A stretch of 64,000 nt of DNA. Source: a virus. The position numbers and the translations under genes are program-made. Where the stretch lies: the IMG/VR virus record IMGVR_UViG_3300025005_000002, positions 64,001-128,000 of that record; one strand, written 5' to 3'. Position 1 is the stretch's first letter. Each line of letters starts with the position of its first letter. Shown here one piece after another: positions 8,303-58,893 of this stretch. Under the pieces are notes generated by a model. The model saw only the letters and a program-made list of their open reading frames with translations, did no database searches and was not told where the DNA came from.

Positions 8303-8380
8303 GCCTCCATAGCTCAATTGGGTAGAGCATTCGCCTTATAAGCGAAAGGTTGGTTGGTTCAATTCCACCTGGAGGCACCA
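8303..8380 (+). tRNA. tRNA-Ile(UAU)
   Basis: Acceptor gcctcca/tggaggc, D arm agctcaattgggtagagc, anticodon arm ttcgc-cttataa-gcgaa, TTCAA T-loop (one bulge in the T stem), encoded CCA. Confidence 0.9.
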
Positions 8381-8645: not shown

Positions 8646-8710
8646 ACGCAAGGGCCTTAAAAGCCCTTGGCCTTAGGGCCGTGAGAGTTCAATTCTCTCC
8701 TTCCACACCA
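8624..8710 (+). tRNA. tRNA-Leu(UAA)
   Basis: GGCGGAATTCGTAGACGC D arm, anticodon arm agggc-cttaaaa-gccct, long variable arm, gagag-ttcaatt-ctctc T arm, CCA end; one acceptor-stem mismatch. Confidence 0.9.
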
Positions 8711-16758: not shown

Positions 16759-17022
16759 ATGCCTACCTCTAAAATTTGTGGATATTGTGCGGCGTGTGGA
16801 AAAATATTGCAACCCGGGGAAATTGCAATATTTTTTGGGACTATAAGAGTAACTAAAGATAAGCCAGAGCCAGGGGTCATAGCATGTGTCTATAATACTG
16901 GGGTGGTATGTCGTGCATCACATCTCCAAGGTGAAGAACGATGTGCGATATGTCAAAAATGTTGGGCCCTGATCAAAATAGGGTACTTTAGATCAGATGC
17001 AAATTATATGGAGACCGCATGA
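16759..17022 (+). CDS. Cys-rich hypothetical protein
   Basis: CGYCAAC...CAICQKC; ggagg RBS; ATGA overlap with add. Confidence 0.6.
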   Translation: MPTSKICGYCAACGKILQPGEIAIFFGTIRVTKDKPEPGVIACVYNTGVVCRASHLQGEERCAICQKCWALIKIGYFRSDANYMETA

Positions 17023-17963
17023 TTGAATTACATCAGCACATGGATGGTTCTATACCGCCAGGATTTATGTGGGAAAGATTAAAAAAACATGGGTTACAAC
17101 CATGCGAAACATTTGAGTTATTTCAGGAAATGGTATACGCCACAGATAATGAAACATTGTTAGATTATTTGAATCGATTTCATGTCCCTATGTGGGTTAC
17201 GCAGTTTTATGGGAATGTTAAGGATGCGATATATATAATAGCGCGTGATGCATACAATACTGGAGTTCGTACGTTGGAATTGCGATGGTCGCCCATTATA
17301 CATACCTTCGCAGGGATGACCGTCAGGCAGACAATAAGGGCCATATTAGATGGTATGAACCATTTTGTATCAGAATATAAAGATATGAAGATGGGGTTAA
17401 TAATCATATCCATGAAACACCATGGACCACATATTGCCAAAATCATGGCTCGTGCTGCGTTGTCTGAGGCGCAGCACCTTCATACGGGATGTGGAGTAGT
17501 TGGTTTTGACCTGGCGGGAGCAGAACGGCTATTCCCACCCCGGCTTTTTAAAGAGGCCTTTGATTTGGCTAGGGCTGGTAAATTACATTTAACATGTCAC
17601 GCAGGTGAAGACGGGTCACCACAAAATATATGGGAAGCCATTGATATTCTTGGTGTCGAACGCATTGGCCATGGATGTACTGCAATCCACGATAAAGAAT
17701 TAATGAGGAGAATTGCACGAGACCAAATATTGGTAGAATGTTGTGTGAGTAGTAATTACCATACTGGGGCTGTAAAACAAGGCGTAGAACATCCAATCAA
17801 AGAGTTCTTGGAACATTTAATGCCAGTTAGTATCTGTACAGACAACCCGATTATAAGTAAAACAGATATATTAAGAGAATGTAGGATAGTGAATGACCTT
17901 TGTGGGCCAGTATCCGACCACATAATGAATCGTGCACAGAATTTCTGTTTTATAGGGAGATAA
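17019..17963 (+). CDS. add: Adenosine deaminase family amidohydrolase
   Basis: ELHQHMDGS (HxHxD), GFDLAG, CHAGE (catalytic Glu), RIGHG and CTDNP all present. Confidence 0.9.
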   Translation: MIELHQHMDGSIPPGFMWERLKKHGLQPCETFELFQEMVYATDNETLLDYLNRFHVPMWVTQFYGNVKDAIYIIARDAYNTGVRTLELRWSPIIHTFAGMTVRQTIRAILDGMNHFVSEYKDMKMGLIIISMKHHGPHIAKIMARAALSEAQHLHTGCGVVGFDLAGAERLFPPRLFKEAFDLARAGKLHLTCHAGEDGSPQNIWEAIDILGVERIGHGCTAIHDKELMRRIARDQILVECCVSSNYHTGAVKQGVEHPIKEFLEHLMPVSICTDNPIISKTDILRECRIVNDLCGPVSDHIMNRAQNFCFIGR

Positions 17964-25338: not shown

Positions 25339-27540
25339 ATGCCAACGATTGGTAAGGTAAAAGAGTTAATTAAAACAGTAATCATAAATTCACCACATGT
25401 TTCTATAGGTTTGTGGGGTCCGCCAGGAGTTGGAAAATGTATAGAACAAGATTCATTAATTCTCGATGCCACCACTGGAGAATTGATATCGATTAAGGAT
25501 TTTGACATTACTCATCAAGTGATAGCATTTGTAAATGGAGATATGGTACGCGTGACCCCGACTAATAAGTTTAAACAGGGAATGCAGGAAGTTTATCGTT
25601 TGCGTACTCAAACTGGTAGGGAAATACTCGCTACGGCAAATCACCCATTCCTCGTGTTAACACAAGGTGCAAAAGGTAAGTTTACTGATTTGATGTGGAA
25701 AGAGCTTACTAATTTAGATATAGGTATGGATGTTATTGCTACAGCCAACAATATACCTGTATTTGGTAGCGAAGAAGCATCAGATGATATATTGAAATTA
25801 ATAGGGTATTTGTTGGGGAATGGGTATATGAATAAACTTCCAGCTACTATATCATTCACATCAACTGATGTTGAACAATTGGCCGAATTTACTGTAATCG
25901 CCAATAATCTTGGTATGGCAGTACGGCACGATGAACGCCCCACTAAAACTATGGGGATTCCTGTTGGTATGTTAAGACTAAAAAATAAGACATTCACATG
26001 GTCTGGTTTGGGCAGTGATGTGGTGAGGTTATTGGAAGAATATGATGTTAAATTTTCTAGGGCTGGGGAGAAGGAAATTCCAGCATTTGTATTTAGACAG
26101 ACCAAGAAGAAGGTTGCATTATTTTTAAACCGTTTATTTTCAACAGATGGATGTGTAGAGATATATAAGGCTATCCATAAATACACTGGTCCAATGGTAA
26201 CAGGCAAGATATCATACAGTTCTAAGTCAAAGAAAATGATATATCAGATCCAACATCTGTTGGACAGATTTGGTATTACATCATATATGAGATGCAAAGA
26301 AGTGAAACAATATGCCCCATATTATGAACTTCAGATCATGGATACTCAATCTATTTGTGCATTCAACGAGATTGGGTTTTATGGAGTGAAAGCTACAAAA
26401 TTTGCTGAAGTATTAAAAGCAACAAAGGCTTCAGCCAAAATCTCTCATCGTACTGGTAATGGGGTATATAGATTTGGGATATTATTTGACAAGGTGGTAC
26501 ATATTGAAAGCCTTGGAGAACGTATGACATATGATTTAGAGATTCCAGTTGCACATAATTTTATTGCTAGTGGGTTGGTTGTACATAATTCGTCGATTAT
26601 AGCTCAAATTGCTAAAGAGCAAAAAATGAAATTTGTAGATATCCGGCTGGCTCAATTTGAACCATCTGAGATACGTGGCATTCCGCAGGTGTCTGGGGGG
26701 GTGACCAAGTGGGCCCGTGCAGATTTTTTACCTAGCATTAATGAACCTACAATATTAATGTTTGATGAATTTTCATGTGCAGAACCATCAGTACAGAATG
26801 CGGCTCTACGTATTGTATTGGATAGGAGCCTAGATAATTGGGAAGCCCCACCCCAGTGCCGTATTATTTTGGCCGGTAATAGGAGAGAAGATTTTGCCTA
26901 TATTAACGAACCATCAGTACCGTTCAAAACACGATTAGTAAACTTTATAGTTCAAGAGAACCTACAGGATTGGAAGATATATGCAAAGGAAATTGGGTGT
27001 GCTACTCAGATTATATCATTTTTGGATTACCAACCGGACCTGCTCTTAAAGTTAATGCCAGACCAATACGCATCTCCAACACCTCGTACGTGGATTATGT
27101 TATCAGATGTGCTCACTGGTGCGTTGGGTGATAAATGGATGAACGTTGATAAACGTTCTCTTCTGACGGTCAATGATCTTGCGTATGCATGTGTTGGTGA
27201 GGGTGCTGCTGTCAGTTTTGTAGCATACTTTGAGACATTTGCCAAGGTAGATGTGAAGGCCATTGTGGAAGATGGTAAAATACCCGATAGTTTTAAGAGT
27301 ATGGAACTATCAAGCCAATATGCCACAGTATATGCAGTTTTGCATTATGCCAATAAGCAGACCATGTCTCATAAGATTGCCAAGAATCTAGTTATGTTCC
27401 TTGAAGCCATACCTCCTGAATTTCAAATGAAGTTTATTGTTGATATTAAATCCACATTCTTGGATAAGGTGGTAGAGATTCAAGAAGAGAAATTTAAGCC
27501 CATCATCAAGAAAATTATGAGTTTGCTTCAACAGAAATAA
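25339..27540 (+). CDS. MoxR-like AAA+ ATPase interrupted by an intein
   Basis: Walker A GPPGVGK|S split by the intein; VDIRLAQ, Walker B LMFDEF, LAGNR, PFKTRL and PTPRTW motifs. Confidence 0.9.
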   Translation: MPTIGKVKELIKTVIINSPHVSIGLWGPPGVGKCIEQDSLILDATTGELISIKDFDITHQVIAFVNGDMVRVTPTNKFKQGMQEVYRLRTQTGREILATANHPFLVLTQGAKGKFTDLMWKELTNLDIGMDVIATANNIPVFGSEEASDDILKLIGYLLGNGYMNKLPATISFTSTDVEQLAEFTVIANNLGMAVRHDERPTKTMGIPVGMLRLKNKTFTWSGLGSDVVRLLEEYDVKFSRAGEKEIPAFVFRQTKKKVALFLNRLFSTDGCVEIYKAIHKYTGPMVTGKISYSSKSKKMIYQIQHLLDRFGITSYMRCKEVKQYAPYYELQIMDTQSICAFNEIGFYGVKATKFAEVLKATKASAKISHRTGNGVYRFGILFDKVVHIESLGERMTYDLEIPVAHNFIASGLVVHNSSIIAQIAKEQKMKFVDIRLAQFEPSEIRGIPQVSGGVTKWARADFLPSINEPTILMFDEFSCAEPSVQNAALRIVLDRSLDNWEAPPQCRIILAGNRREDFAYINEPSVPFKTRLVNFIVQENLQDWKIYAKEIGCATQIISFLDYQPDLLLKLMPDQYASPTPRTWIMLSDVLTGALGDKWMNVDKRSLLTVNDLAYACVGEGAAVSFVAYFETFAKVDVKAIVEDGKIPDSFKSMELSSQYATVYAVLHYANKQTMSHKIAKNLVMFLEAIPPEFQMKFIVDIKSTFLDKVVEIQEEKFKPIIKKIMSLLQQK
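25438..26589 (+). mobile_element. Intein (384 aa) with LAGLIDADG homing endonuclease
   Basis: Starts with Cys (CIEQDS), TANHPF block B, LIGYLLGNG and FLNRLFSTDG LAGLIDADG blocks, ends YDLEI...VVHN before a +1 Ser. Confidence 0.95.
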
Positions 27541-27555
27541 TAACTGGGAGGATAT

Positions 27556-28797
27556 ATGGCAGTGACTGATTCTAGCGAGATGATGAGTGCAGCTAAAATA
27601 CAGTTGCTCAGAGATCATCCATTCTGGGCAACTATCCTTTTGTCTCTACCGGTTGTAGAAACGGAAAGTGTACCTATTATGGGAACTGATGGATATAATC
27701 TGTATTGGAATACAGACGGGGTAAAGTTATTGGGATCTATTGAGAACATTAAATTTGCATTGTGTCACGAAATTGTACACGTTATTATGGACCATATGCA
27801 ACGTGGTGTAAATAAAGATAAGAGATTATTCAATATCGCAGCTGATATTGTAGATAACCATCTCCTTGAGAGAAATAGTATAGCGTTTAATCAAAGAGAT
27901 ACAGAGATTTCATTGTGGAACGCGGCTGCATTAGCAAAAATCCAGTCTATGAAGGATATAAAACTTGATGAAGTAGTTGCTGAGGAAATATATAGGATTT
28001 TATTAGAAAAAGCAAAGAAAGTGAAATGTAATTGTAATAGTGGTGGTAGTGGTGGTGATAGGGATGGAAATGGTAGTAATGGTGAGAATGAAGATTGCCC
28101 TGTTCATGGTGATCCATCGGGGTTTGATACACATGTGCAAAGACCACGGGAAGATCACGAAAATACAAAAGTAAAACATGCCATCGTTAAGGCTGCGCAG
28201 ACAGCACAAGCATCTGGACAAGGTAAACTCCCTGCTGGTCTTGATCGATTAATTAAGGATATTCTTGAACCACAAGTAGATTGGTGGGTGAAGCTTAAGA
28301 ATCTCATGGAGTCTAAGTGTCGTGGATATCAACGCACAAGATTATACCCATCTAAAAAATCCCATGCTCTTGGGTTTTTTATGCCATCATCTTATGGAAC
28401 ACAGGTTGGGGATATTGTTGCGGCAATTGATACTAGTGGATCAATTGGGGATGAAACTTTACGTAGATTTCTTGCCGAATTGATGAGTATGTCACATCTA
28501 TCTAAACGTACATATATTATGACATGTGATGCTGATGTCCATGAATTTATTGAGGCCAATTCATTGAACGTGTGGCAGATCCCAAGTAGACTTAGGTTTA
28601 AAGGAGGCGGTGGTACTGATTTTAGACCAATATTTAAGCGTGTAGCAAAGGAACGGATTAAGCCAAAGGTATTGGTATATCTTACTGATACCTATGGGAC
28701 CTTTCCAACCAAGAAGCCAGATTATCCAGTATTGTGGGTAGTCGTGGGTGGATCGAAGGCAGTACCATGGGGGGAACTTATCCCCATTAAGGGATAA
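27556..28797 (+). CDS. DUF2201-type HExxH metallopeptidase-like + vWA domain protein (MoxR partner)
   Basis: MGTDG, HEIVH, MIDAS AIDTSGS, GGGGTDF and YLTD; directly downstream of the AAA+ gene. Confidence 0.9.
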   Translation: MAVTDSSEMMSAAKIQLLRDHPFWATILLSLPVVETESVPIMGTDGYNLYWNTDGVKLLGSIENIKFALCHEIVHVIMDHMQRGVNKDKRLFNIAADIVDNHLLERNSIAFNQRDTEISLWNAAALAKIQSMKDIKLDEVVAEEIYRILLEKAKKVKCNCNSGGSGGDRDGNGSNGENEDCPVHGDPSGFDTHVQRPREDHENTKVKHAIVKAAQTAQASGQGKLPAGLDRLIKDILEPQVDWWVKLKNLMESKCRGYQRTRLYPSKKSHALGFFMPSSYGTQVGDIVAAIDTSGSIGDETLRRFLAELMSMSHLSKRTYIMTCDADVHEFIEANSLNVWQIPSRLRFKGGGGTDFRPIFKRVAKERIKPKVLVYLTDTYGTFPTKKPDYPVLWVVVGGSKAVPWGELIPIKG

Positions 28798-32565: not shown

Positions 32566-34008
32566 ATGGGTATACAATTGCTGAAGATTCGACTGAAAGG
32601 GTTCGCGACCAATTCCTCATCGGCCCATAGTGTAATCTTGGCTGGATCATTAAAATCAGGAAATAGTGGGCCAGTGACAGATGGTGAATTTGGATGGGAG
32701 CATTTTTTACAGTCTACTTATAAGGAAAAGATGTCGTATATGGCCCAGGCATTATTTGATTGCTTGTCTAATCATGAGGACCGTGCTGCCAAATCAAAGC
32801 GGGCGAGGAAAATAGTCAAAGATCTTCTTGGTGTTGAGTGTGGATTCGGTACTGGTATTGATCATCAATCTGCCATTGAAATCCCGCAGCGTATGAATAA
32901 AAAATTGGCACTTGATTTTTGGAAAGAACTTTCTATTGCAATAAGTAAAGACCAAACGGTAGAAATAGCTGGTGGTAATGATAATGGTGGTGATGTCGAA
33001 GCTGAAGAGCATCCATTTTGGAGCGCAATACGCAACGCACTGAATCATTACAACAGTAATTACCGTATTAGAAAGGATGATGATATTTGGGTATTATTTA
33101 ATACCTATGACGGGACAAAAATGCACCTTGCGTTAAATGATAATCAATTTATTGATGACTTCAAACCAACAAGACCAGAATTAATAGATCTTAAAATTAC
33201 TGACAAATGCAATACTGAATGTAAATTTTGCTATCAAGGAAGTTTACCTAGTGGTCACCATGCTAAATATGAAGATATAGAAAAAGTTCTTGTAGGGATG
33301 GCTAAGGCCGAGGTATTTGAGATTGCAATGGGTGGTGGTGAACCAACGTTACACCGTGATTTTTTTAAAATATTAAACAAAATTAAAAAACTTGGTATGG
33401 TACCAAATTTTTCTACAAAGAATTATAATTTTTTTACGCCACGTAACTTTGAACTTTTAAAAAATGTAGTTGGATCAATTGGTATAAGTGTTAGTACTTT
33501 GGATGATTTAGATAGATATATAAAAATAATGACAGCAGCACGGGATTGTGATATGAATAATTTTTTTGGTAGATCTAAAATTATACTACATTATATATTG
33601 GATCAACATCCAATGTCTAATTTTATAAATATATTGGAGCGGCTATCAAAGACCAATATGTTTCGTCATCATCTGCTATTGCTTGGTAAAAAAGGCGGCG
33701 GGCGTAGTACTGGTGGGTATTTAGATAGTACTGGTTGGGCCTTATTTGTAGATAAATTTTTTAAAGATGAGGAGTCGGAACAATTAGATGTTTCTGTTGA
33801 TACACTTATTGCTAATAGATATGAAGATGATCTGAAATCCATTGATAAAAGACAGTATTACACAGATGAGGGTAGATTCTCTGTGTATGTGGATGTAGTA
33901 AATAAAAAGTTTGGTAAAGCTTCTTATGGAACAGAATTACTACCATATGTTAAGGTTAAAGATATTTTAGATGCTTTTAAGGGATGGGAACCAATCAAAA
34001 TACTCTAA
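32566..34008 (+). CDS. Radical SAM protein fused to an N-terminal TNSSS-motif domain
   Basis: IRLKGFATNSSSAHS N-terminal motif; DLKITDKCNTECKFCYQ (CxxxCxxC), GGGEP and FSTKN. Confidence 0.9.
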   Translation: MGIQLLKIRLKGFATNSSSAHSVILAGSLKSGNSGPVTDGEFGWEHFLQSTYKEKMSYMAQALFDCLSNHEDRAAKSKRARKIVKDLLGVECGFGTGIDHQSAIEIPQRMNKKLALDFWKELSIAISKDQTVEIAGGNDNGGDVEAEEHPFWSAIRNALNHYNSNYRIRKDDDIWVLFNTYDGTKMHLALNDNQFIDDFKPTRPELIDLKITDKCNTECKFCYQGSLPSGHHAKYEDIEKVLVGMAKAEVFEIAMGGGEPTLHRDFFKILNKIKKLGMVPNFSTKNYNFFTPRNFELLKNVVGSIGISVSTLDDLDRYIKIMTAARDCDMNNFFGRSKIILHYILDQHPMSNFINILERLSKTNMFRHHLLLLGKKGGGRSTGGYLDSTGWALFVDKFFKDEESEQLDVSVDTLIANRYEDDLKSIDKRQYYTDEGRFSVYVDVVNKKFGKASYGTELLPYVKVKDILDAFKGWEPIKIL

Positions 34009-41962: not shown

Positions 41963-43144
41963 ATGTCTAAGGTAACAGTATTGGTTGGTGGGGCTTGGGG
42001 TAGTGAAGGAAAAGGTAAACTTGCGAATATTATCGCGGACTACTATAGTGTTCATGTTCGTACTGGTGCGCCAAATGCGGGGCATACAATTTACTATAAT
42101 GGGGATAAGGTTGTAATGCAAACTATCCCAGTTGGCTGGACCAATTTTGATGCCAAGTTAATAATTGGTGCTGGTGGGATGATTATACCAGAGCTTTTCT
42201 TTAAAGAGATTGCAATGCTTAAGAAATATGATCCTAATATTGAAAAGCGAGTTTTTATTCATCCAAATGTAGTGATTATTGAGCCTAAGCATATTTTGGC
42301 TGAGTATGGGCAGACTGAACCTTGTGATTATGCCCATAAGCCAATGGAGTGCCCACAGTGGCAGACAATTAAAGCAAATATTCAGAACGACCTAGTAGAT
42401 CCGTGCACTAAGTGTGATAAGTTGAGTGATAATGATCTTTGGAAGAAGGTTGGATCAACGCGTGAGGGTTGTGGTGCCGCACTCGCAGATAAGATTTGGC
42501 GTGGTGCTTCCCCAAGAGGGCTGGTCAAGTTGGCTGGTGAATGGCCCGGAATTAAGGAATTTTGTTGTGATACCACACTAATGATTAATGAGTTGATTGA
42601 TGATGGTGAATCAGTATTACTAGAGGGAACACAAGGGTCGGGTCTTTCATTGCATCATGGTACTTATCCGAAGACTACATCTCGGGATACTAATGCGGGG
42701 GGGTGGATTAGTGAAGCTGGGATTTCTCCATTGGTTGTCACTGACGTTATTGCTGCTATCCGCCCTTATCCTATTAGGGTGGCTGGTGATAGCGGTCCTA
42801 CGGGCTCACAGGAAATCACGTGGGCAGAAGTTGAGCGTAGAGCTGGTGTTCCAGAGGGAAGTTTTAAGGAAATTACGACAGTCACCAAGCGCGTTAGGCG
42901 GGTATTTGAATTTTCTAATGAGTGGTTTAAGAAAACGGCGATGATCAACCGTTTCACCGGTATTGGTTTAATGTTTGCTGATTACATCTCTGCCAAGGAT
43001 GCTGGTGTTAATAAGTGGGATGAACTTTCTGATGAGACCAAGGCTTGGGTGGCAGCATTTGAAGAGGAATACAATATTCCAATTGTTTGGATTTCAACAG
43101 GGCCATACAAAGAACAAACTATAATTAGGGAGGTATTTGAATAA
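41963..43144 (+). CDS. purZ: PurZ0-like adenylosuccinate-synthetase-family enzyme (N6-succino-2-amino-dAMP synthetase candidate)
   Basis: GSEGKG (Ser at the PurA catalytic Asp13 position), PNAGHT, EGTQG, IRPYPIRVAGDSG, ITTVTKRVRRV, MFADY and ISTGP. Confidence 0.75.
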   Translation: MSKVTVLVGGAWGSEGKGKLANIIADYYSVHVRTGAPNAGHTIYYNGDKVVMQTIPVGWTNFDAKLIIGAGGMIIPELFFKEIAMLKKYDPNIEKRVFIHPNVVIIEPKHILAEYGQTEPCDYAHKPMECPQWQTIKANIQNDLVDPCTKCDKLSDNDLWKKVGSTREGCGAALADKIWRGASPRGLVKLAGEWPGIKEFCCDTTLMINELIDDGESVLLEGTQGSGLSLHHGTYPKTTSRDTNAGGWISEAGISPLVVTDVIAAIRPYPIRVAGDSGPTGSQEITWAEVERRAGVPEGSFKEITTVTKRVRRVFEFSNEWFKKTAMINRFTGIGLMFADYISAKDAGVNKWDELSDETKAWVAAFEEEYNIPIVWISTGPYKEQTIIREVFE

Positions 43145-43682: not shown

Positions 43683-44972
43683 ATGGGCTGGAGAGACAGC
43701 AGATTTGGTTTTATGAAAATTGAGGATAATAAGAAGTACAGAGTTCGGATTTTAATGCCATTTAAATGTAAGAAGTGCGGTGTCAGTGGGTATTATCCTA
43801 ACTGGCCAAATGTGACGTGCACCTGTGGTGTTGGATCTGATGATTTAGTAGAAGCCGAGTGCGTATCAGGTTGGTACCATCGCGTTCCTAGTGTATCAGA
43901 CCCAGTGACACGTGCGACGATTCGTAAATATCGTACGTTCTTATGTAATATTCAGGGTGTGGCCCGTGGTGGAAAGCGTGAATGTCAAGCAGATCTCTGT
44001 GGTAAGTTGGACCCAATGTTTAGGATGCTTGCACCTAGGGATCAGAGGCGAAAGCGCAATGGTGTGGAGGTCGATAGCCATTTTGGGATTACCCCACAGC
44101 ATATAATCACGGTCTACAGCTATGATGAGCAGAAGCCAATGGTATTGAAATTTGGTAATGATCTTCGTAGTGAGTTTGTGCGGATTATCACTGCCAAGAA
44201 TTCTCTAGCTGGCCGGGATATTATCGTGTGGCGGGAGAAAAATAATAACCAGACTACATACAAGGCAGAAGCACAAGATCCTTCTTCTTTTTCAGAGAAT
44301 GTTGATTATGGTTCGATCTCGTTTGATGCAGTATTAGCTTTTGAAAATGTTGCCCCAGTGAAGGTGTGGGAATTTGTTTCTACTGGCAAAATCTCTGGTG
44401 AGGGGGGATCAAGTGCCCTTCCTTTTAGTGAACAATCTAAGGCCATTGCTGGTGGGTTCCCAACTCAAGGTGATATTGACAAATATAAGCAAGCTCGTTT
44501 GCTCGTGGTAGATGTTGGTAAGAGATATGTCGGCAGAACTTTTGGATATTTAATTGATAATAATGAGCCGGATTATTTTAAGTGGCTTATTAATATGTCT
44601 AATTCTCCAGAAGTGAAGGCTGGGGCTGAGTGGATCTCTAGTTTGTATACTACTGGTAATATCCATTTGTTACTAAAGGTCCTAAATGATCCCCCAGAGC
44701 CGAGTGGTAATGGTGTGGGGTCTAGTGGTGAACCAGAACCAGCAATGAAGACTTCATATGTTGGGGAGCCTAGTGGTATTACTCCACAGTCTACGCGTGT
44801 TGATGAGATTAACAAAATTTTTGAGGCAAAATTTGTCGGTAAATCAGATAAAGAAATGATTGATTTCCTATCTGGAGTTTATGGTCAATATAAAAATGTT
44901 ACTGAATTGTCAATTGCATCATGGTCAGAAGAGAAGCTTAATGCGCTGGTTGAAGCATTAGCGAAGATTTAA
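43683..44972 (+). CDS. gp32-like single-stranded DNA-binding protein with Zn ribbon and a C-terminal DUF3820-like module
   Basis: KIEDNKKYRVRIL..GWYH..FLC..CQADLC..VLKFG pattern; GKRYVGRTFGYL..PDYFKWL module; located just upstream of recA. Confidence 0.6.
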   Translation: MGWRDSRFGFMKIEDNKKYRVRILMPFKCKKCGVSGYYPNWPNVTCTCGVGSDDLVEAECVSGWYHRVPSVSDPVTRATIRKYRTFLCNIQGVARGGKRECQADLCGKLDPMFRMLAPRDQRRKRNGVEVDSHFGITPQHIITVYSYDEQKPMVLKFGNDLRSEFVRIITAKNSLAGRDIIVWREKNNNQTTYKAEAQDPSSFSENVDYGSISFDAVLAFENVAPVKVWEFVSTGKISGEGGSSALPFSEQSKAIAGGFPTQGDIDKYKQARLLVVDVGKRYVGRTFGYLIDNNEPDYFKWLINMSNSPEVKAGAEWISSLYTTGNIHLLLKVLNDPPEPSGNGVGSSGEPEPAMKTSYVGEPSGITPQSTRVDEINKIFEAKFVGKSDKEMIDFLSGVYGQYKNVTELSIASWSEEKLNALVEALAKI

Positions 44973-50654: not shown

Positions 50655-50979
50655 TGCAGAAACTTTTCCCGTTGTTGTAGCGTCCATATATAATGATAAT
50701 ACTTCGTGTGGTACTACTGCTATGACTGTGAAGGTTTATCAAGGGACATGTAAATCTGGTGTTGTGTTTGCTACCGGGCCTGCGTCTTGTGGTACAACTA
50801 GTAATATTACCAATGGTAGTTTAATAGCGTGCGGTACTGGGTCACATAATTATTATGCCACCGCTACTGTTGCTGCTGGCGGGACAGAAGGTGATTGTTC
50901 TGGAGTCAAAGCATACGCGCCACCAGCGTGTTCAGCTACACCAGCTGCTCCATCTATTGGGAATATTATAAGGAAATAA
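50587..50979 (+). CDS. Secreted FN3-like protein
   Basis: aaggag RBS + ATG 50587, signal peptide (SNA|ET), IYNDNT..YYATATV..EGDCS. Confidence 0.6.
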   Translation: MRRILMVVALLIWTLGLGVTISNAETFPVVVASIYNDNTSCGTTAMTVKVYQGTCKSGVVFATGPASCGTTSNITNGSLIACGTGSHNYYATATVAAGGTEGDCSGVKAYAPPACSATPAAPSIGNIIRK

Positions 50980-51269
50980 TGGCTGATACGTCAAATAATC
51001 CTTGGTATCCATCGCCAGAATTTCTGGCTCAAGCAGGGCATGTGTTGCTTGGTATGCTTGCTGTGCTAGCACCACGTGCCCTGTGGGATGGATGGATGCC
51101 AGCCGCTGCTGGTACAGCAATGGTTTATATTTATATGTTGGTTAAAGAATTTTCATATGATATTTATATAGAGAAAGAAACTGTTGCTATTGGGTGGAAG
51201 GATATTGCGTATTTATCGGTTGGTACTATTACTAGTTGGGGATTGTTAATATATTTAGGACGTCTATAA
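50979..51269 (+). CDS. Small multi-pass membrane protein
   Basis: Three hydrophobic segments; TAATG coupling. Confidence 0.6.
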   Translation: MADTSNNPWYPSPEFLAQAGHVLLGMLAVLAPRALWDGWMPAAAGTAMVYIYMLVKEFSYDIYIEKETVAIGWKDIAYLSVGTITSWGLLIYLGRL

Positions 51270-51424: not shown

Positions 51425-51499
51425 TGCGGGGTCGCCAAGTGGTAAGGCACTAGCCTCATAAGCTAGTTATCGAGCGTTCGAATCGCTCCCCCGCAACCA
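51425..51499 (+). tRNA. tRNA with CAU anticodon (Met; Ile2 not excluded)
   Basis: tgcgggg/ccccgca acceptor, gcc-aagtggtaa-ggc D arm, ctagc-ctcataa-gctag, gagcg-ttcgaat-cgctc, ACCA end. Confidence 0.93.
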
Positions 51500-53350: not shown

Positions 53351-54037
53351 ATGATTGTGATGTCTAGACAAGCAAGGGTCCTTCTGTCTAAAATTCAAGA
53401 ACAATGTCCTATGGTTCAGTATGAGGTAACAGATGTAGAATGGTATGCACATAGTTTTACGATTTCGTTGTTATGCAGTTGGTGGAAGGTAAAAAAGAAG
53501 ATTGAAGGTGGTGTTGGCGATACCCATACATGGTATCTCCCAGTAGTAGGATCGCAGGATTATATTTCATTAGTCGGGCATATAATTAGATTAGGTGGGA
53601 AGATTAAGCAAGCAAATTTGGATTGGTCAAATAACCACAGGCAAGTGTATCATTATCTATGTGCGAATATTTTAACATGTGATTTTAATCTTAATGAATT
53701 ACGTACTATTTTAGATATTGGATCAGAATTTAATATCCAAGATGTACAACAGGCAGCAGATAAAACACGTGGTGTAACTGGTGGTGATAATATATCTTAC
53801 CTTTTGGCGGTATTACAACGTAATAAGCAAGCCAAAGATATAAAGGCGCAGAGGGTATCAGAAGCGATAAATTTATCCCAAAGGTGTTTGAAGAAGATAA
53901 GTTCAAAGCGTAGTGGTGCATTAGATGTTACGTTAATGAAAATATCATTTTCAGATGCTAGGGAAACTCAAGAAGTGATGAGGAGAATGAATGCAATTCA
54001 GAGATCTTTCGGGAGCAATAGAGTTAGTAAAAAGTAA
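53351..54037 (+). CDS. Hypothetical replication protein (possible DnaD-like loader/initiator domain)
   Basis: DVQQAADK..G.DNISYLLAVL resembles the DnaD-domain N-x-x-Y-x-x-x-I/V-L motif; lies directly before the primase-helicase. Confidence 0.4.
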   Translation: MIVMSRQARVLLSKIQEQCPMVQYEVTDVEWYAHSFTISLLCSWWKVKKKIEGGVGDTHTWYLPVVGSQDYISLVGHIIRLGGKIKQANLDWSNNHRQVYHYLCANILTCDFNLNELRTILDIGSEFNIQDVQQAADKTRGVTGGDNISYLLAVLQRNKQAKDIKAQRVSEAINLSQRCLKKISSKRSGALDVTLMKISFSDARETQEVMRRMNAIQRSFGSNRVSKK

Positions 54038-56630
54038 GATAAGCCTTTTAGATTTAGTCAAACAACATACTGGTGAAGAAGGTAAAATCCAAGGTTTGAA
54101 TATTAGTTTCGCATGTCCGTTCCATGCTGAGCATGACCCATCATTCAAGGTAAATATAGCAGGTGAAATACACGAACATTTCTTTTATTGTTTTGGGTGT
54201 AAGCGTGGCGGTAGTATTATTGATTTTATTCAGTTTGCAGAAGGTATAGAAGTAGTTGAGGCCACTCAGCTACTAGCAGAACGCCACGGTGTTGATCTCA
54301 CTCCCTTCCTAGATGATTCGCAAGATCCCCGCCGATCTTTCTTAGCAAAAATCAATCAAGCAGTTGTTGATGTATGCCATGAAGCACTACTCGGGAATCT
54401 AGGTGCTTCATCTGTATTTATGATAGAGAGCCGGAAAATAGATATTGAGACCCTAAAGCTATTTAAAATTGGTTACACGGTGTCTACACAGTGGTTGCAT
54501 GAGAGTATAACCAAAAAATTAGGTGTAACTATCTCATATTCAGATTTAAAGGATATTGACCTATGTAATCCAATGATGTGGGATAATGCGATTGTGTTCC
54601 CAGTGTTTAGTAGTAGTGGGCACGCAACACACTTCTATACTAGGCCATTTTCTGGTAGTGTAAAATATGTTGGGACATCGTCAAATTCTCAGTTATATAG
54701 TGAAGATTCAATATATGGGTTACATATAGCTAGGAAATCGTTACGAGAAAATGGTTATAAATTGAATGTTGTAGAAGGCCAAATTGATCTGTTGCAGATG
54801 TATTCACATGGGTTTAAGAATACTGTTGCGGCTTGTGGCTTATCCAAATATACATCGTCGGTATTTATTAATGCGATTTCCAAATATAAAGTGAATGAGG
54901 TGGTGCTTATACCAGATGGAGATGAGCCTGGTAAACGAGAATTGATTAAGATTGCAGAAGATTTTACTGTTTATGGTAATATATTTGTGTCTTTTGTTGT
55001 TTTGCAAAACGGAGACCCAGATGAAATACTTAAAGAATTTGGTGCATCTGGGATTAATAATTATATTGTCAATAATATACATCCCATACATTTTTATATT
55101 GATAATGCTTACAACACGAATGCTGGGCTTTCGGATGAAATAAAATTTCTTGATGTGGTATGTAAGTATATTAATAAATTTAGTACTGTTTATCGTGAGA
55201 TGGCATCTAAACATATAGAAATTAAGTATGGTATACATGATGCATTAGATTATTTTATTACCTACTCGTTAAATCCTAGAGATATTCATGACAAAGAATC
55301 AGAAGCAACCATTATTAAATTAATGGTAGAAGACAAAGAATTTGCTTATACTGTACGACATGAAATCGGTGAGCATGAATTTTATGTGCGCAATAATGCA
55401 GATATCTATAAAACTATCTGTGCTTGTTTGACTAAATATGGTACAGTTTCAGAAGAAATTTTAATTAGTGTACTTAAAAAACCACTCCAACAGTACTGGG
55501 GTACGTTGCAGAAACACAATCTTGATATAGAATTTTGTATTCAGCAAGTTAAAGAATTATTTATGAGACGTAGTGCTAGCAAGGTAGCGGTTAGATTGTT
55601 GGCAGAGTCCATGGATATAGATAAATCGGTAGATGTGATTATGCAGGAACATCGTGCAGCAATAGTAGAGATTAATGATCGTCGTAATACGATGGTAACA
55701 TCATCAACGCAAGATTTGGCGGATCGGTTTTCAGAGTTATACATAGAACGTGCTCAGTCTGGTAAGACTATTTTAGGTACGCCACTTAGTAATAGGTGGG
55801 CCACACTCAATACAGCATGGTCTGGGTTGGAGCTTGGGTATGTCCATATGGTGGCTGCTCATACTGGTGTGGGGAAGACTTCGGTGGCGGTTAATTGGTT
55901 TAATGATGTAATTACACTATCTCAGGAACCAGCATTGTTTATATCGGCAGAAATGTCTAGGGATGACATTTGGACAAGGATGATGTCTATACATTGTGGG
56001 TTATCAAATACAATGATTAGACTTGGTAAATACCCACCAAGTTCTGTTGAATGGGAAAAGATGATGGAATCGTTTAAGGTTTTACGTGCAGCGCCAGGGT
56101 ATGTTATTGTGCCGAATAATTTTACAATATCAGAGATTATGGGTATAATAGAATACCACAGACTTAAATTTGGATGTAAACATGTATTTATTGATTATGT
56201 CCAATTAATTAAGGCTGATAATAGAGCTGGTAAGAAGTGGGAAGTTCTTGATGTAGCTAGTTCATTATTACAGAATAGGGCCATGAGTTCACGAGATCCA
56301 ATATGTATTGTCACAGTAGCACAACAGAATAAAGATAAATCTGAGATATTCGGGTCGGTTGAAGGTGTCGGTGGTGCGTATAAGCTAAGCCAAGATGCCG
56401 CGAAGGTGGTAATTTTAACTGAGAAATCTAATGAAGAGATTAATAGATTTGGTGGGAAACGTGGGAATATTACAATGAACATAGATAAAGTACGTATGGG
56501 CCCGTCTGGGATTATTGTAGATATAATGTATGATAAAGATCCCAATTTGGGATCACTTAAGGCTGGTGAAGCAGCCAATTGGGATGGGGAGATCAATCTT
56601 AATATAGAGATTGTGCCTGTCTATACCTAG
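53991..56630 (+). CDS. DnaG-type primase / DnaB-type helicase fusion
   Basis: CPFHAEHDPSF..FYCFGC Zn finger; TOPRIM VVEGQID, PDGDEPG and GDPDE; helicase AAHTGVGKT, FISAEM, IDYVQL, SQDA and KVRMGP. Confidence 0.95.
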   Translation: MQFRDLSGAIELVKSKISLLDLVKQHTGEEGKIQGLNISFACPFHAEHDPSFKVNIAGEIHEHFFYCFGCKRGGSIIDFIQFAEGIEVVEATQLLAERHGVDLTPFLDDSQDPRRSFLAKINQAVVDVCHEALLGNLGASSVFMIESRKIDIETLKLFKIGYTVSTQWLHESITKKLGVTISYSDLKDIDLCNPMMWDNAIVFPVFSSSGHATHFYTRPFSGSVKYVGTSSNSQLYSEDSIYGLHIARKSLRENGYKLNVVEGQIDLLQMYSHGFKNTVAACGLSKYTSSVFINAISKYKVNEVVLIPDGDEPGKRELIKIAEDFTVYGNIFVSFVVLQNGDPDEILKEFGASGINNYIVNNIHPIHFYIDNAYNTNAGLSDEIKFLDVVCKYINKFSTVYREMASKHIEIKYGIHDALDYFITYSLNPRDIHDKESEATIIKLMVEDKEFAYTVRHEIGEHEFYVRNNADIYKTICACLTKYGTVSEEILISVLKKPLQQYWGTLQKHNLDIEFCIQQVKELFMRRSASKVAVRLLAESMDIDKSVDVIMQEHRAAIVEINDRRNTMVTSSTQDLADRFSELYIERAQSGKTILGTPLSNRWATLNTAWSGLELGYVHMVAAHTGVGKTSVAVNWFNDVITLSQEPALFISAEMSRDDIWTRMMSIHCGLSNTMIRLGKYPPSSVEWEKMMESFKVLRAAPGYVIVPNNFTISEIMGIIEYHRLKFGCKHVFIDYVQLIKADNRAGKKWEVLDVASSLLQNRAMSSRDPICIVTVAQQNKDKSEIFGSVEGVGGAYKLSQDAAKVVILTEKSNEEINRFGGKRGNITMNIDKVRMGPSGIIVDIMYDKDPNLGSLKAGEAANWDGEINLNIEIVPVYT

Positions 56631-56667: not shown

Positions 56668-57387
56668 ATGAAGACATGTACAAAATGTGGGATTAAGAAA
56701 TCAAACTTTGGTAAAGATAAAAGAGCAACAGATGGATTACAATCACAATGTAGTGAGTGTAAGAATCAAGGAATATTTAAATATAGGAAGGCATCTGATT
56801 GGGCTAATAAGGCATACAAAAAGAAGTTAATAAAAATATGTTCAAAATGTGGCGTGAAAAATCCTATATGTGGTTTTGGTAAGGATAGAAGGGCATCAGA
56901 TGGGTTAGAATCAGAATGTAAAGAATGTAAGTCTAAAAGAAATATTGAGTATGAAAAGACGCCAAGATGTAAAGAAAAAAGACAGCGAAGAGATAAAGTT
57001 AAAAGGAGCGAATGCAGTAAAAGACATTATCAAAATAATATAGATCGTTATAGAAAGTGTAACGAGATGAGATACAACAAAAACAAAGAAGAGATATCAG
57101 AAAAACGAAAAATAACAAATAAATTATTAAAATTTGAGGTTATGTCCCATTATTCTATTATTATTGGTGTGCCGATATGTGCGCATAAATATTGTCAAAT
57201 TACTGACATTGATATGCTTTGTATTGACCACATTAATAATAATGGGAATAAACATAGAAAAGAAGAGGGTATTACTGGTGGAGTAAAATTGTATAAATGG
57301 TTAATCGATAATAACTATCCTACTGAGTTTCAAGTATTATGTTGGAACCACAATATGAAAAAATACATGGAGTTAATAAACAAATGA
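56668..57387 (+). CDS. HNH-like homing endonuclease with duplicated Zn finger
   Basis: Two CxxC..FGKD.RA.DGL.S.C.EC repeats; LCIDHINNNG..FQVLCWNHN. Confidence 0.85.
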   Translation: MKTCTKCGIKKSNFGKDKRATDGLQSQCSECKNQGIFKYRKASDWANKAYKKKLIKICSKCGVKNPICGFGKDRRASDGLESECKECKSKRNIEYEKTPRCKEKRQRRDKVKRSECSKRHYQNNIDRYRKCNEMRYNKNKEEISEKRKITNKLLKFEVMSHYSIIIGVPICAHKYCQITDIDMLCIDHINNNGNKHRKEEGITGGVKLYKWLIDNNYPTEFQVLCWNHNMKKYMELINK

Positions 57388-57944
57388 ACAAATTTAAAAA
57401 GCTTCTCTGGGTTATTGGCCCTGCTGGAAGTGGTAAGACCACTATTTCAAAACAAATTGCCAGTATAGTAGGAGTAGAATTTATAAGTTCTGGAGACATA
57501 GTAAGAAGCTTGGCAGATGCTCATAAAGACCTGGCCAATGGTGACCTTTATTATAATGATGATGCAATTATGGGGGTCATAAATGATAGAATTAACACTA
57601 CGTCTAGTCAGATTATTATTGTTGATGGGGTCCCAAGAACTAGTGGACAAGTCAGATGGATTAACGAAAACATGTCGAAATATTTATGGAGCGTGGTATA
57701 TATTGACGCGCCTACGATTAAAAGAATCAAACGACTTATTAAAAGAGGTCGTGACGATTACGACAGTCACGATATAATATTAAAAAGGGTCTCTAAGGAC
57801 GAGGATAATATGAAATATATTGCCAATATGTGCCTTGAAGTGTTGGCCCCTAGTAAGATAAGATTTATTGATTCGATTATAGATGGGGATACTTCATTAG
57901 AGGTCGATAGATTGCTTACATTACTTAGTACGATGGAGGGATAA
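57384..57944 (+). CDS. Nucleoside monophosphate kinase (adenylate-kinase-like)
   Basis: GPAGSGKTT, ISSGDIVR, VDGVPRT..Q and KRGRDD. Confidence 0.85.
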   Translation: MNKFKKLLWVIGPAGSGKTTISKQIASIVGVEFISSGDIVRSLADAHKDLANGDLYYNDDAIMGVINDRINTTSSQIIIVDGVPRTSGQVRWINENMSKYLWSVVYIDAPTIKRIKRLIKRGRDDYDSHDIILKRVSKDEDNMKYIANMCLEVLAPSKIRFIDSIIDGDTSLEVDRLLTLLSTMEG

Positions 57945-58427
57945 ATGGGAGTGTCGCTTTATTTAGCTGGTCCTGTTGATTTTAATGAAAGGACTTATTA
58001 TGATATCATAGATGGGCTTATCGTTGACGATGTTCCAGTTATTTTGTTTAGGCCTGGGATGGCGTTTAAGGTTAGAGGAGAAGCAGATCCAAAATATCTA
58101 GTTGATGTTAATATGGAAGCTATGATGCGTTCAGATATTGTGGTATTTTATTTGAATGCTTCAAAAACGTGTGGGATGTGGATGGAGTCTATCTGGGCAT
58201 TAAATAATAAAAAACGTATGATATTTTATGCAGAGCCTGGGGTTCGCTTGTCTTTATATACAAGATGGTTAGTTGGTCAGGTTCATTCTGAATGGATTAC
58301 TGATATTGAGGAATTTGGAAAGGCTTTAAATAAACAAATTTCTCAGGTATATAGAAGTAGATTATTAGGTAATATCTTTGATGTATTACCTTTAGATGAT
58401 ACAGTTACTTTATTGGAGGAGGGATAG
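57945..58427 (+). CDS. Nucleoside 2'-deoxyribosyltransferase-like / dNMP N-glycosidase family protein
   Basis: YLAGP start, DVNMEAMMRSDIVV, CGMWMES (catalytic Glu position), KRMIFY. Confidence 0.7.
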   Translation: MGVSLYLAGPVDFNERTYYDIIDGLIVDDVPVILFRPGMAFKVRGEADPKYLVDVNMEAMMRSDIVVFYLNASKTCGMWMESIWALNNKKRMIFYAEPGVRLSLYTRWLVGQVHSEWITDIEEFGKALNKQISQVYRSRLLGNIFDVLPLDDTVTLLEEG

Positions 58428-58428
58428 G

Positions 58429-58893
58429 ATGAGTGATCGTTTATTGGTGAAGGTATTGGAAGATGCACCATTTAAACCACCCGAGTTGAGACCAGCAAAG
58501 CCCGGGGATGTTGGTTTAGATTTAGCTGTGTGTATTAAGGAAGACCAGATGGTTATTTCTGCTGGGCAAATTATAGATATCCCATGTGGGATAGCGGTAA
58601 AATTGCCCTGGGGAACTTGGGCTGGTATCAAGTCGCGTTCGTCTACTTTTGCTAAGAAGAAATTGTTAGTAATTGAGGGGGTAATTGATGAAGATTATAC
58701 TGGAGAGCTTAAAGTATTCATTCTTAACCCAAACAAATATGACGTTGTGATTAAAAGGGGTGAAAGGTTGGCCCAATTAATAGTATACCCAAAAGTCTCA
58801 TTTAATGTGACTTATGTTGATGTATTGCCAAAGACAGAAAGAGGAGATAGTGGCTTTGGGAGTACTGGCGGGTTTGTGGGTGATTTAGTATGA
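58429..58893 (+). CDS. dut: Trimeric dUTPase
   Basis: GDVGLDL, KSRSS, GVIDEDYTGE, RLAQL and RGDSGFGSTG. Confidence 0.95.
   Translation: MSDRLLVKVLEDAPFKPPELRPAKPGDVGLDLAVCIKEDQMVISAGQIIDIPCGIAVKLPWGTWAGIKSRSSTFAKKKLLVIEGVIDEDYTGELKVFILNPNKYDVVIKRGERLAQLIVYPKVSFNVTYVDVLPKTERGDSGFGSTGGFVGDLV

What the first reader, a model, noticed from the sequence alone, without database searches (positions are those of the whole stretch)
41963..43144. PurZ0-like synthetase: possible 2-aminoadenine (Z) genome in a large phage
Seen: Ser replaces the PurA catalytic Asp13 (GSEGKG), R-x-Y-P-I-R-V replaces PurA K-A-Y-x-T-R-V, and the NTP-specificity segment reads MFAD. Known: Asp-to-Ser and the R..PIRV pattern mark PurZ enzymes that use dGMP; PurZ0 keeps an Asp there and uses GTP, whereas PurZ has Asn and uses ATP. 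The Phe+Asp combination looks intermediate. Described Z phages are mostly small, and the usual partners (DatZ, MazZ, DpoZ) are not in this window. Inference: a Z-DNA pathway in a jumbo-like phage with a DnaG-DnaB replisome.
Basis: partly seen in the sequence, partly recalled or inferred. Interest (0 to 1): 0.9.

Follow-up and report, generated by a model that had tools for sequence, protein, structure and literature searches.

The report
Z-DNA synthetase in large DnaE phage
A 178-kb uncultured phage carries a divergent PurZ-type enzyme together with kinase, NDT-like and dUTPase-like helper genes, so it probably replaces adenine by 2-aminoadenine (Z) in its DNA and copies that DNA with a bacterial-type DnaE polymerase, but no chemistry has been measured.

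Summary
It is an adenylosuccinate-synthetase homologue inside the Ser-bearing PurZ superclade. It lies in neither characterised clade, PurZ (phiVC8, S-2L, SH-Ab) nor PurZ0 (Archimedes, Wayne).

Its NTP pocket is a hybrid. It has the Phe and Tyr of PurZ, plus the Asp and Ser-Thr-Gly-Pro of PurA. This F-D-Y pattern was the commonest state (170 of 274) among the relatives I collected. The enzyme also carries a conserved four-Cys insert.

DatZ, MazZ, DUF550, DUF5664, PolA and PurB are absent from the whole 178-kb genome. Five related 100-180-kb phage contigs carry the NDT-like and Dut-like parts, and four of them the kinase in the same order. All five also encode DnaE and no PolA.

An unusual adenosine-deaminase homologue (17019-17963) may extend the adenine purge.

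Verdict: a new variant of a known system. A Z genome is likely (about 0.65) but unproven. The scan noted the same architecture earlier on another genome (e1-5729235).

The parts
41963..43144 (+). PurZ-type (Ser14) succino-aminodeoxyadenylate synthetase homologue, 393 aa. Its NTP pocket is F338-x-D340-Y341 plus S378-T379-G-P.
   Evidence: AlphaFold2 model: pLDDT 88.4, pTM 0.88. Best structural match is P. horikoshii PurA with GTP and IMP, TM 0.93, followed by phiVC8 PurZ (0.84-0.85) and PurZ0 (0.81). Trees.
42302..42440 (+). Insert of about 40 aa with four conserved Cys (C121, C130, C148, C151), between the HPNVVIIEPKH segment and the KVGST motif. Candidate Zn-binding module.
   Evidence: The four Cys are at least 90% conserved in the 20-sequence clade alignment A1. 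The insert is absent from PurA, PurZ, PurZ0 and P0041. A Cys4 pattern was found in 40 of 266 relatives. Model confidence here is moderate, pLDDT 65-81. Metal binding was not tested.
57339..57944 (+). Adenylate-kinase-like P-loop NMP kinase, 201 aa. Its stop abuts the NDT-like start.
   Evidence: Pfam ADK 8e-12 and AAA_17 1e-14. PDB adenylate kinases reach 1.5e-8. NCBIfam adk models all score below cut-off. 32% identical to the adk of Bacillus phage vB_BpsS-140. Found in the same order in G001, G003, G005 and G006.
57945..58427 (+). NDT-superfamily protein, DmtZ-like, 160 aa.
   Evidence: Weak Pfam PF15891 and PF05014 hits. Archimedes gp53 matches at 1e-6. Invariant Y6, D12, P37, N56, G77 and E81 correspond to Ghobes DmtZ Tyr6, Asp12, Pro57, Asn77, Gly99 and Glu103 (PMC12884076). 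The model (pLDDT 82) matches NDTs, DNPH1 and MilB.
58429..58893 (+). dUTPase-fold protein of the DutZ clade, 154 aa. The true ATG is 2 nt after the NDT stop and is preceded by GGAGGAGGG.
   Evidence: Pfam dUTPase 3e-25. It is the only dUTPase-family gene in the genome. 39-41% identical to the Wayne DutZ domain and to Archimedes gp55. It sits in a 100/99* clade with all Duts of PurZ-bearing phages, apart from 8 canonical Duts.
17019..17963 (+). Adenosine-deaminase-family protein, 314 aa, with S/T-D-N where ADA has T-D-D. Candidate, unproven extra member of the adenine purge.
   Evidence: PF00962 1e-65. TIGR01430 scores 219 bits, just over its cut-off. It is rare in phages: 10 of 50,697 records. 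It is present in relatives G001 and G003, and in G003 it lies directly upstream of kinase-NDT-Dut.

Best explanation
The gene encodes a PurZ-type synthetase that condenses dGMP with aspartate to give succino-2-aminodeoxyadenylate (inferred). Host PurB and kinases would then convert this to dZTP. The phage encodes no PurB or guanylate kinase, so those steps fall to the host or to the phage ADK-like kinase (inferred).

The phosphate donor is most likely GTP, or GTP and dGTP. The guanine-reading Asp340 and the Ser-Thr-Gly-Pro loop of PurA are kept, although the Phe and Tyr that stack on the base in PurZ are also present. I put GTP preference at about 0.6 given the rest.

Adenine is kept out of the DNA by the translationally coupled module at 57339-58893, not by DatZ and MazZ. 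A DutZ-clade dUTPase would convert dATP and dGTP to dAMP and dGMP, which also feeds PurZ. A DmtZ-like NDT would destroy dAMP, or move its deoxyribose phosphate onto Z. An NMP kinase probably phosphorylates dZMP.

The adenosine-deaminase homologue at 17019-17963 may remove the released adenine or deoxyadenosine irreversibly. This is speculative.

The Z-containing genome would be replicated by the phage's own DnaE-type Pol III alpha with the fused DnaG-DnaB primase-helicase. Selectivity would come from the nucleotide pool, not from the polymerase.

Shown here: homology, motif states, clade placement, gene linkage and its conservation. Inferred: all substrates, the NTP choice and the presence of Z in DNA.
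For: Enzyme:
- Ser14 and the TVTKRVRRV and PIRV substrate-side motifs are as in PurZ and PurZ0.
- All 120 best word-index homologues carry Ser at this place, as do all full-length close relatives.
- The Ser superclade is 100/99* apart from Asp-bearing archaeal-type PurA.

Partners:
- The only Dut in the genome falls in a 100/99* clade (stem 1.22) with the Wayne DutZ domain, Archimedes gp55, and the Milani, Keanu and metagenomic Duts of PurZ-bearing phages. Eight canonical Duts lie outside.
- Of 1,647 phage dUTPase hits, the 30 ranked highest (by query coverage times identity) are all PurZ0 phages.
- The NDT-like protein keeps every DmtZ catalytic and specificity residue (paper) and has the NDT/DNPH1 fold.

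Linkage:
- Of 43 IMG/VR records with related PurZ-like genes, 38 have a dUTPase-family gene and none has HD_3/DatZ.
- Dut follows the PurZ-like gene directly in most of the 45 loci where it was found.
- Kinase-NDT-Dut is conserved in order in G001, G003, G005 and G006, and NDT and Dut are fused in G002.
- These five large contigs have DnaE and no PolA, as does this genome.

Literature:
- DutZ and DmtZ purge dATP and dAMP in PurZ0 phages (PMC12884076).
- Aquatic contigs with Ser14 PurZ, NDT and dUTPase but no DatZ or MazZ were enriched as dZ-modified DNA (bioRxiv 10.1101/2025.10.22.683976).
Against: - No chemical or read-level evidence for Z in this DNA.
- The enzyme scores below NCBI's curated cut-offs for PurZ (202.5 against 300) and for PurA (275.8 against 368). 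It belongs to an uncharacterised clade.
- No member of the F-D-Y pocket class has been assayed, so the donor NTP, and even dGMP specificity, rest on analogy.
- No DnaE is known to copy Z-DNA, and no dATP triphosphohydrolase is encoded.
- The canonical Dut outgroup in the tree has only 8 sequences.
- The kinase and deaminase roles rest on gene order alone.
- The genome is 92% complete by estimate, so absences are not absolute.
Confidence: 0.65

Rival explanations
1. The Z pathway is the same, but the enzyme behaves like PurZ and uses ATP or dATP, or any purine NTP. The Phe338/Tyr341 aromatic pair would dominate base binding and Asp340 would be tolerated.
For: Phe338 and Tyr341 align with phiVC8 Phe295 and Tyr298. 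The bioRxiv paper cites these residues as stabilising the adenine ring of ATP. The tree puts the query lineage no nearer to PurZ0 than to PurZ.
Against: Asp340 is invariant in the clade. It is the residue that reads guanine N1/N2 in PurA (established knowledge). Every ATP-using PurZ examined has Asn or Gln there, and G-F-G-P instead of S-T-G-P. The best structural match is GTP-bound archaeal PurA.
Confidence: 0.2
2. The module remodels purine pools, but the packaged genome is not fully Z-substituted. Substitution might be partial, or the dZ nucleotides or the adenine purge might serve host takeover or counter-defence.
For: No DatZ-type dATP triphosphohydrolase and no Z-selective PolA are encoded. 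DnaE has not been shown to use dZTP. Sugar-synthesis and transferase genes beside dnaE hint at another, separate modification system.
Against: PurZ0 phages also lack DatZ and MazZ and rely on DutZ and DmtZ (PMC12884076). Cyanophage S-2L uses a non-selective PrimPol, according to the bioRxiv paper's introduction. Contigs with this gene set were enriched as dZ DNA. The set is tightly conserved across six large phages.
Confidence: 0.12
3. It is an ordinary PurA-like auxiliary metabolic gene that boosts AMP and dATP synthesis from IMP.
For: The best HMM and structure matches are archaeal PurA. The GTP-type pocket is retained.
Against: The catalytic Asp13 is replaced by Ser, and the IMP-side G-R-R-R motif by K-R-V-R-R. 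Asp-bearing PurAs are excluded from its clade at 100/99*. It is linked to enzymes that destroy adenine nucleotides. It scores below the PurA cut-offs.
Confidence: 0.03

Closest known systems
[quoted passage not shown]
   Same: Ser at the Asp13 place, Asp at the E. coli Asp333 place, and the PIRV and TVT(K/N)x(V/I)RRV motifs. The helper set is a DutZ-clade dUTPase plus a DmtZ-like NDT, in the same order as the Wayne fusion. There is no DatZ or MazZ.
   Different: Only 31-33% identical. It lies outside the PurZ0 clade (100/100* without it; joint clade rejected at AU p = 0.017). The pocket is F-x-D-Y with S-T-G-P, where PurZ0 has M-x-D-Q with G/A-T. It has a 4-Cys insert. The replicase is DnaE, not DpoZ-1 PolA. 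The genome is 178 kb rather than 40-80 kb. A kinase, and possibly an ADA homologue, are added. DUF5664 and PurB are absent.
[quoted passage not shown]
   Same: Ser14, Thr305 (= Thr262), Trp287 (= Trp252) and Pro270 (= Pro233). The aromatic pair Phe338/Tyr341 equals Phe295/Tyr298.
   Different: Asp340 where PurZ has Asn or Gln. S-T-G-P where PurZ has G-F-G-P. 26-29% identity. Not in the PurZ clade. No DatZ, MazZ, DUF550 or DpoZ partners.
Archaeal short PurA (Pyrococcus horikoshii PH0438; PDB 5K7X, 2D7U)
   Same: Best sequence match (9e-52) and best structural match (TM 0.93). The short architecture and the GTP-pocket Asp and S/K-T-G-P loop are shared.
   Different: PurA has the catalytic Asp13 and the G-R-R-R IMP motif. 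The query has Ser and K-R-V-R-R, and a 40-aa Cys4 insert.
Bacillus phage vB_BpsS-140 (closest cultured phage, 31% identity)
   Same: The replication module is syntenic: PurZ-like, HNH, a 400-aa protein, RecA, helicase, DnaG primase, adk, dut. Its Dut is in the same DutZ-type clade.
   Different: Its enzyme has the PurZ-type pocket N-F-A-N-Y and groups beside the PurZ clade. Its genome is 55 kb. No NDT-like gene was seen between adk and dut.

Membership tests
PurZ superfamily (Ser-bearing, dGMP-using adenylosuccinate-synthetase homologues) | Ser replaces the catalytic Asp13 of PurA | tested here: met
   GSEGKG, Ser14.
PurZ superfamily (Ser-bearing, dGMP-using adenylosuccinate-synthetase homologues) | Falls inside the Ser clade, apart from Asp-bearing PurA | tested here: met
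   The clade has 100/99* support in the careful tree of 56 rows and 98* in the quick tree of 108 rows.
PurZ superfamily (Ser-bearing, dGMP-using adenylosuccinate-synthetase homologues) | Uses dGMP rather than IMP | not testable with these tools
   Only the motif states are known (T305, W287, P270, K-R-V-R-R).
PurZ sensu stricto (ATP/dATP-dependent; phiVC8, S-2L) | Asn or Gln at the E. coli Asp333 place, and a G-F-G-P loop | tested here: not met
   Asp340 and S378-T379-G-P.
PurZ sensu stricto (ATP/dATP-dependent; phiVC8, S-2L) | Membership of the PurZ clade, and the NCBIfam NF038379 cut-off | tested here: not met
   The PurZ clade is 100/100* without the query. The NF038379 score is 202.5 against a cut-off of 300.
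PurZ sensu stricto (ATP/dATP-dependent; phiVC8, S-2L) | Partners DatZ (HD) and MazZ or DUF550 | tested here: not met
   PF01966, PF13023, PF12917, PF03819, PF04447 and PF18909 gave no hit in 178 kb. blastp with DatZ and MazZ found nothing.
PurZ0 (GTP-dependent; Archimedes, Wayne) | Asp retained in the NTP base pocket | tested here: met
   Asp340 aligns with Archimedes Asp305 and Wayne Asp326.
PurZ0 (GTP-dependent; Archimedes, Wayne) | Membership of the PurZ0 clade | tested here: not met
   PurZ0 (4 rows) is 100/100* without the query. Holding both lineages together costs 31.7 lnL, AU p = 0.017.
PurZ0 (GTP-dependent; Archimedes, Wayne) | Helper genes dutZ and dmtZ in the genome | tested here: met
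   DutZ-clade Dut at 58429-58893. DmtZ-like NDT at 57945-58427.
PurZ0 (GTP-dependent; Archimedes, Wayne) | GTP as phosphate donor | not testable with these tools
   Inferred from Asp340 and S-T-G-P only.
PurA (adenylosuccinate synthetase) | Catalytic Asp13, and the curated model cut-offs | tested here: not met
   Ser14. PRK04293 scores 275.8 against 368, and TIGR00184 scores 221 against 395.6.
DutZ (dATP/dGTP-hydrolysing dUTPase homologue) | dUTPase fold with the five motifs, and clade membership with characterised DutZ | tested here: met
   Motifs seen in the sequence: DVGLDL, SRSS, GVIDEDYTGE, RLAQL, RGDSGFGSTG. The clade has 100/99* support.
DutZ (dATP/dGTP-hydrolysing dUTPase homologue) | Hydrolyses dATP and dGTP but spares dZTP | not testable with these tools
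   No residue-level determinant is published in the papers read.
DmtZ (NDT-superfamily dAMP hydrolase and transferase) | NDT fold with the Tyr6/Asn77/Glu103 triad, Asp12 and Pro57 (Ghobes numbering) | tested here: met
   Y6, N56, E81, D12 and P37 are invariant in 12 sequences. The fold matches NDT, DNPH1 and MilB. Residue roles are from PMC12884076.
DpoZ (Z-selective family A polymerase) | A PolA gene in the genome | tested here: not met
   PF00476 gave no hit. The replicase is DnaE (PF07733 3e-68) at genome 134675-138211.

The most novel reading that the evidence does not exclude
A third functional class of PurZ enzymes exists, with an F-x-D-Y pocket and often a Zn-binding insert. It would be the sequence state from which ATP-using PurZ arose. 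It operates in a lineage of 100-180-kb phages that fully substitute A by Z yet replicate with a bacterial-type DnaE (C-family) polymerase. These phages run an extended purge-and-recycle module: DutZ, DmtZ, a dedicated dZMP kinase, and a variant adenosine or adenine deaminase that sends purged adenine back into the guanine pool feeding PurZ.
Probability: 0.3. Interest if true: 0.8.

Novelty: new variant of a known kind. Interest (0 to 1): 0.62.

Why it matters
Characterised Z-genome phages are small (about 40-80 kb) and replicate with DpoZ-type PolA or PrimPol.

If this 178-kb phage and its relatives really carry Z-DNA, several things follow:
- C-family DnaE replicases would be shown to copy a Z:T, G:C genome. 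That matters for synthetic biology of non-canonical DNA.
- The pool-based route of adenine exclusion (DutZ and DmtZ) would extend well beyond actinophages.
- There would be new candidate parts to test: a dedicated kinase, an ADA variant, and a Zn insert.

The F-D-Y pocket class is abundant among the relatives collected and unassayed. It gives a direct test of how the switch from GTP to ATP arose between PurA, PurZ0 and PurZ.

Tried and rejected
- **Searches for the classic partners** were all negative in the whole genome: HD, HD_3, YfbR-like, MazG, DUF550, DUF5664, PolA, PurB (Lyase_1) and guanylate kinase. Local blastp with DatZ, MazZ, DpoZ and PurB from phiVC8, S-2L, SH-Ab and Archimedes also found nothing.
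- **megablast of 20 kb of the window** against 50,697 phage records gave no match.
- **tblastn of the NDT-like protein** against cultured phages gave no match. Its homology to DmtZ was seen only by direct pairwise blastp and by conserved residues.
There is therefore no habitat and no read-level information, and read laying was not used.
The geometry of the four Cys could not be checked, so 'Zn-binding' remains an inference.
- **Literature searches** for PurZ with DnaE, jumbo or adenosine deaminase found nothing relevant.
- **The PurA-AMG reading** was considered and rejected (Ser14, clade, partners).
- **Strict PurZ0 membership** was considered and rejected (tree and AU test).
- **The backbone order** of the PurZ, PurZ0 and query lineages is unresolved (open forks). 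I make no claim about which is ancestral beyond the pattern of pocket states.
Full report
**Observation**

The ORF at 41963-43144 (+) encodes 393 aa. It lies in a long co-oriented gene array of a 178,008-bp IMG/VR virus record, estimated 92% complete. The window is bases 64001-128000 of that record.

The protein matches Pfam Adenylsucc_synt at 2e-53 and PHROG 1211, the family annotated as PurZ, at 1e-67. Among solved structures the best sequence matches run in this order:
- Pyrococcus horikoshii PurA, 9e-52
- Archimedes PurZ0 (7VF6), 5e-42
- phiVC8 PurZ, 2e-27
- S-2L PurZ, 6e-20

A residue map gives the following, using literature numbering for E. coli:

| Query residue | E. coli PurA | PurZ0 | PurZ |
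|---|---|---|---|
| Ser14 | Asp13 | Ser | Ser |
| Phe338 | Lys331 | Met | Phe295 (phiVC8) |
| Asp340 | Asp333 | Asp | Asn or Gln |
| Tyr341 | Val334 | Gln | Tyr298 |
| Ser378-Thr379-Gly-Pro | S-T-G-P | G/A-T | G-F-G-P |

On the substrate side, T305, W287, P270 and the K-R-V-R-R segment match PurZ and PurZ0, not PurA. So the description of a 'Phe+Asp intermediate' is correct.

**What it is**

The AlphaFold2 model is confident (pLDDT 88.4, pTM 0.88). It superposes best on GTP/IMP-bound archaeal PurA (TM 0.93). phiVC8 PurZ follows at 0.84-0.85 and PurZ0 at 0.81.

Homologues are plentiful in metagenomes:
- 2,980 have E <= 1e-10 among the 8,000 candidates scored by the word-index search.
- 3,149 have E <= 1e-10 among the 50% representatives.
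- All 120 best hits carry Ser at position 14.

In a careful ML tree of 56 sequences the groupings are:
- The Ser-bearing superclade is 100/99* apart from Asp-bearing archaeal-type PurA.
- PurZ (phiVC8, SH-Ab, S-2L) is 100/100*.
- PurZ0 (Archimedes, Wayne, Milani, Keanu) is 100/100*.
- The query sits in a third lineage that holds only metagenomic proteins. Its own 5-row group is 100/100*.

The quick 108-row tree agrees. Holding the query lineage and PurZ0 together as one clade is rejected, at AU p = 0.017. That group was named after seeing the tree.

NCBI's curated models also refuse it. The PurZ model scores 202.5 bits against a cut-off of 300. Archaeal PurA scores 275.8 against 368.

I took a census of the pocket columns over 274 aligned relatives. 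The sample is biased toward the query's kin.
- S-F-D-Y: 170
- S-F-N-Y (the PurZ state): 61
- S-M-D-Q: only the two PurZ0 references

So the hybrid pocket is a large, unassayed class, not an oddity.

The enzyme also has a 40-aa insert (about nt 42302-42440) with four Cys at least 90% conserved in its clade: C121, C130, C148 and C151. PurA, PurZ and PurZ0 lack it. It lies just before the GST loop. Model confidence there is moderate. Zn binding is inferred, not shown.

**Partners**

The classic Z partners are absent from the whole genome:
- HD, HD_3 and YfbR-like (DatZ)
- MazG
- DUF550
- DUF5664
- PolA
- PurB
- guanylate kinase

However, 15 kb downstream lies a tightly coupled trio.
- 57339-57944 is an adenylate-kinase-like NMP kinase.
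- 57945-58427 is an NDT-superfamily protein.
- 58429-58893 is the genome's only dUTPase-family gene.

The Dut ATG lies 2 nt after the NDT stop, behind GGAGGAGGG.

A 2026 NAR paper (PMC12884076) shows that PurZ0 phages use exactly such enzymes. DutZ converts dATP and dGTP to dAMP and dGMP. DmtZ is an NDT-like enzyme that hydrolyses dAMP and can transfer its deoxyribose phosphate to Z. These replace DatZ and MazZ.

Evidence for the window's Dut:
- It is 39-41% identical to the Wayne DutZ domain and to Archimedes gp55.
- Of 1,647 phage dUTPase hits, the 30 ranked highest (by coverage times identity) are all PurZ0 phages.
- In a careful tree, every Dut from a PurZ-bearing phage forms one clade with 100/99* support and a long stem. 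That clade includes the query and Wayne DutZ. It stands apart from the eight canonical Duts most similar to the query.

Evidence for the NDT-like protein:
- It matches Archimedes gp53 at 1e-6.
- It keeps Tyr6, Asp12, Pro, Asn, Gly and Glu at the places of Ghobes DmtZ Tyr6, Asp12, Pro57, Asn77, Gly99 and Glu103. These are invariant in 12 sequences.
- Its model (pLDDT 82) matches NDTs, DNPH1 and MilB. The paper reports the same structural neighbours for DmtZ.

**Comparative genomics**

A profile scan of IMG/VR found 59 loci with related PurZ-like genes. I searched 43 of those records whole:
- 38 have a dUTPase-family gene.
- None has HD_3.
- 24 have PolA. All but one of these (the 184-kb G004) are phages of about 20-50 kb.
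- Dut follows the PurZ-like gene directly in most of the 45 loci where it was found.

Five large contigs (G001, G002, G003, G005 and G006; 103-178 kb) have DnaE and no PolA. This genome is the same: its DnaE, 1178 aa, lies at genome 134675-138211, outside the window. Four of the five keep kinase-NDT-Dut in the same order. G002 has an NDT-Dut fusion.

All the large-contig enzymes examined have the F-x-D-Y or F-x-D-Q pocket.

The closest cultured phage is Bacillus phage vB_BpsS-140, at 31% identity. It shares the replication-module synteny, including adk-dut.

**A further candidate part**

17019-17963 encodes an adenosine-deaminase-family protein (PF00962 1e-65; TIGR01430 just over its cut-off). 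Such genes are very rare in phage records: 10 of 50,697. Yet it recurs in G001 and G003. In G003 it sits directly upstream of kinase-NDT-Dut.

All three copies have S/T-D-N where ADA has T-D-D. A role in disposing of purged adenine or deoxyadenosine is plausible, but it rests on linkage only.

**Mechanism proposed**

- DutZ-like: dATP and dGTP to dAMP and dGMP.
- PurZ-like: dGMP plus Asp plus, probably, GTP gives dSMP.
- Host PurB: dSMP to dZMP.
- Phage kinase and host kinases: dZMP to dZTP.
- DmtZ-like: removes dAMP.
- DnaE together with the DnaG-DnaB fusion (53991-56630) replicates the genome from an adenine-depleted pool.

The bioRxiv metaGPA study supports the link between this gene set and real dZ DNA. 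It reports that aquatic contigs with Ser14 PurZ, NDT and dUTPase, lacking DatZ and MazZ, were enriched as dZ DNA.

None of the papers read mentions DnaE, a phage kinase or a deaminase in this context.

**Limits**

- The backbone of the PurZ tree is unresolved.
- The canonical Dut outgroup is small.
- The NTP choice is inference.

This is therefore a second instance, not a first.

**Verdict**

This is a new variant of a known system, of moderate to high interest.

Noticed in passing
Metagenomic proteins P0139, P0140, P0147, P0157, P0160-P0162, P0174 and others: 29 of the listed 50%-cluster representatives are 480-746 aa long, with an N-terminal P-loop kinase-like domain fused to the PurZ-like domain. 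Those included in the quick tree form a well-supported clade (99*). Their N-termini hit the window's ADK-like kinase weakly (best 3e-7). This fusion hints that a kinase works with PurZ-like enzymes.
   Followed up: partly
window 58948-62508, window 25339-27540, and genome 146893-149847 (outside the window): Three intein-bearing genes: a class I/II-type ribonucleotide reductase large subunit with an intein, an AAA_5 ATPase with an intein plus LAGLIDADG, and a 984-aa protein with an intein plus LAGLIDADG.
   Followed up: no
genome 130224-134675 and 143230-144063 (outside the window; L010): NDP-sugar epimerase/dehydratase, RmlD-like reductase and glycosyltransferase genes lie next to dnaE and an SbcCD-like pair. 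These could belong to a second, sugar-based modification system for DNA or for the host surface.
   Followed up: no
genome 152186-169708 (outside the window): A single uninterrupted ORF of 5,840 aa.
   Followed up: no
window 27556-28797 with 25339-27540: A DUF2201 metallopeptidase/VWA-like protein directly follows the AAA_5 (MoxR-like) ATPase. A radical SAM protein lies at 32566-34008.
   Followed up: no
window 8303-8380, 8624-8710 and 51425-51499: Three tRNA genes: Ile-TAT, Leu-TAA and Met-CAT.
   Followed up: no
window 50895-51269: A 124-aa ORF with a weak blastp hit (7e-4, 38% over 68 aa) to Archimedes gp51, the gene directly downstream of PurZ0 in that phage. It may be another shared Z-cluster gene of unknown function.
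   Followed up: no
window 43683-44972: A 429-aa protein with no Pfam or PHROG match lies between the PurZ-like gene and recA. It is weakly similar (5e-6) to the 402-aa protein at the syntenic place in Bacillus phage vB_BpsS-140.
   Followed up: no
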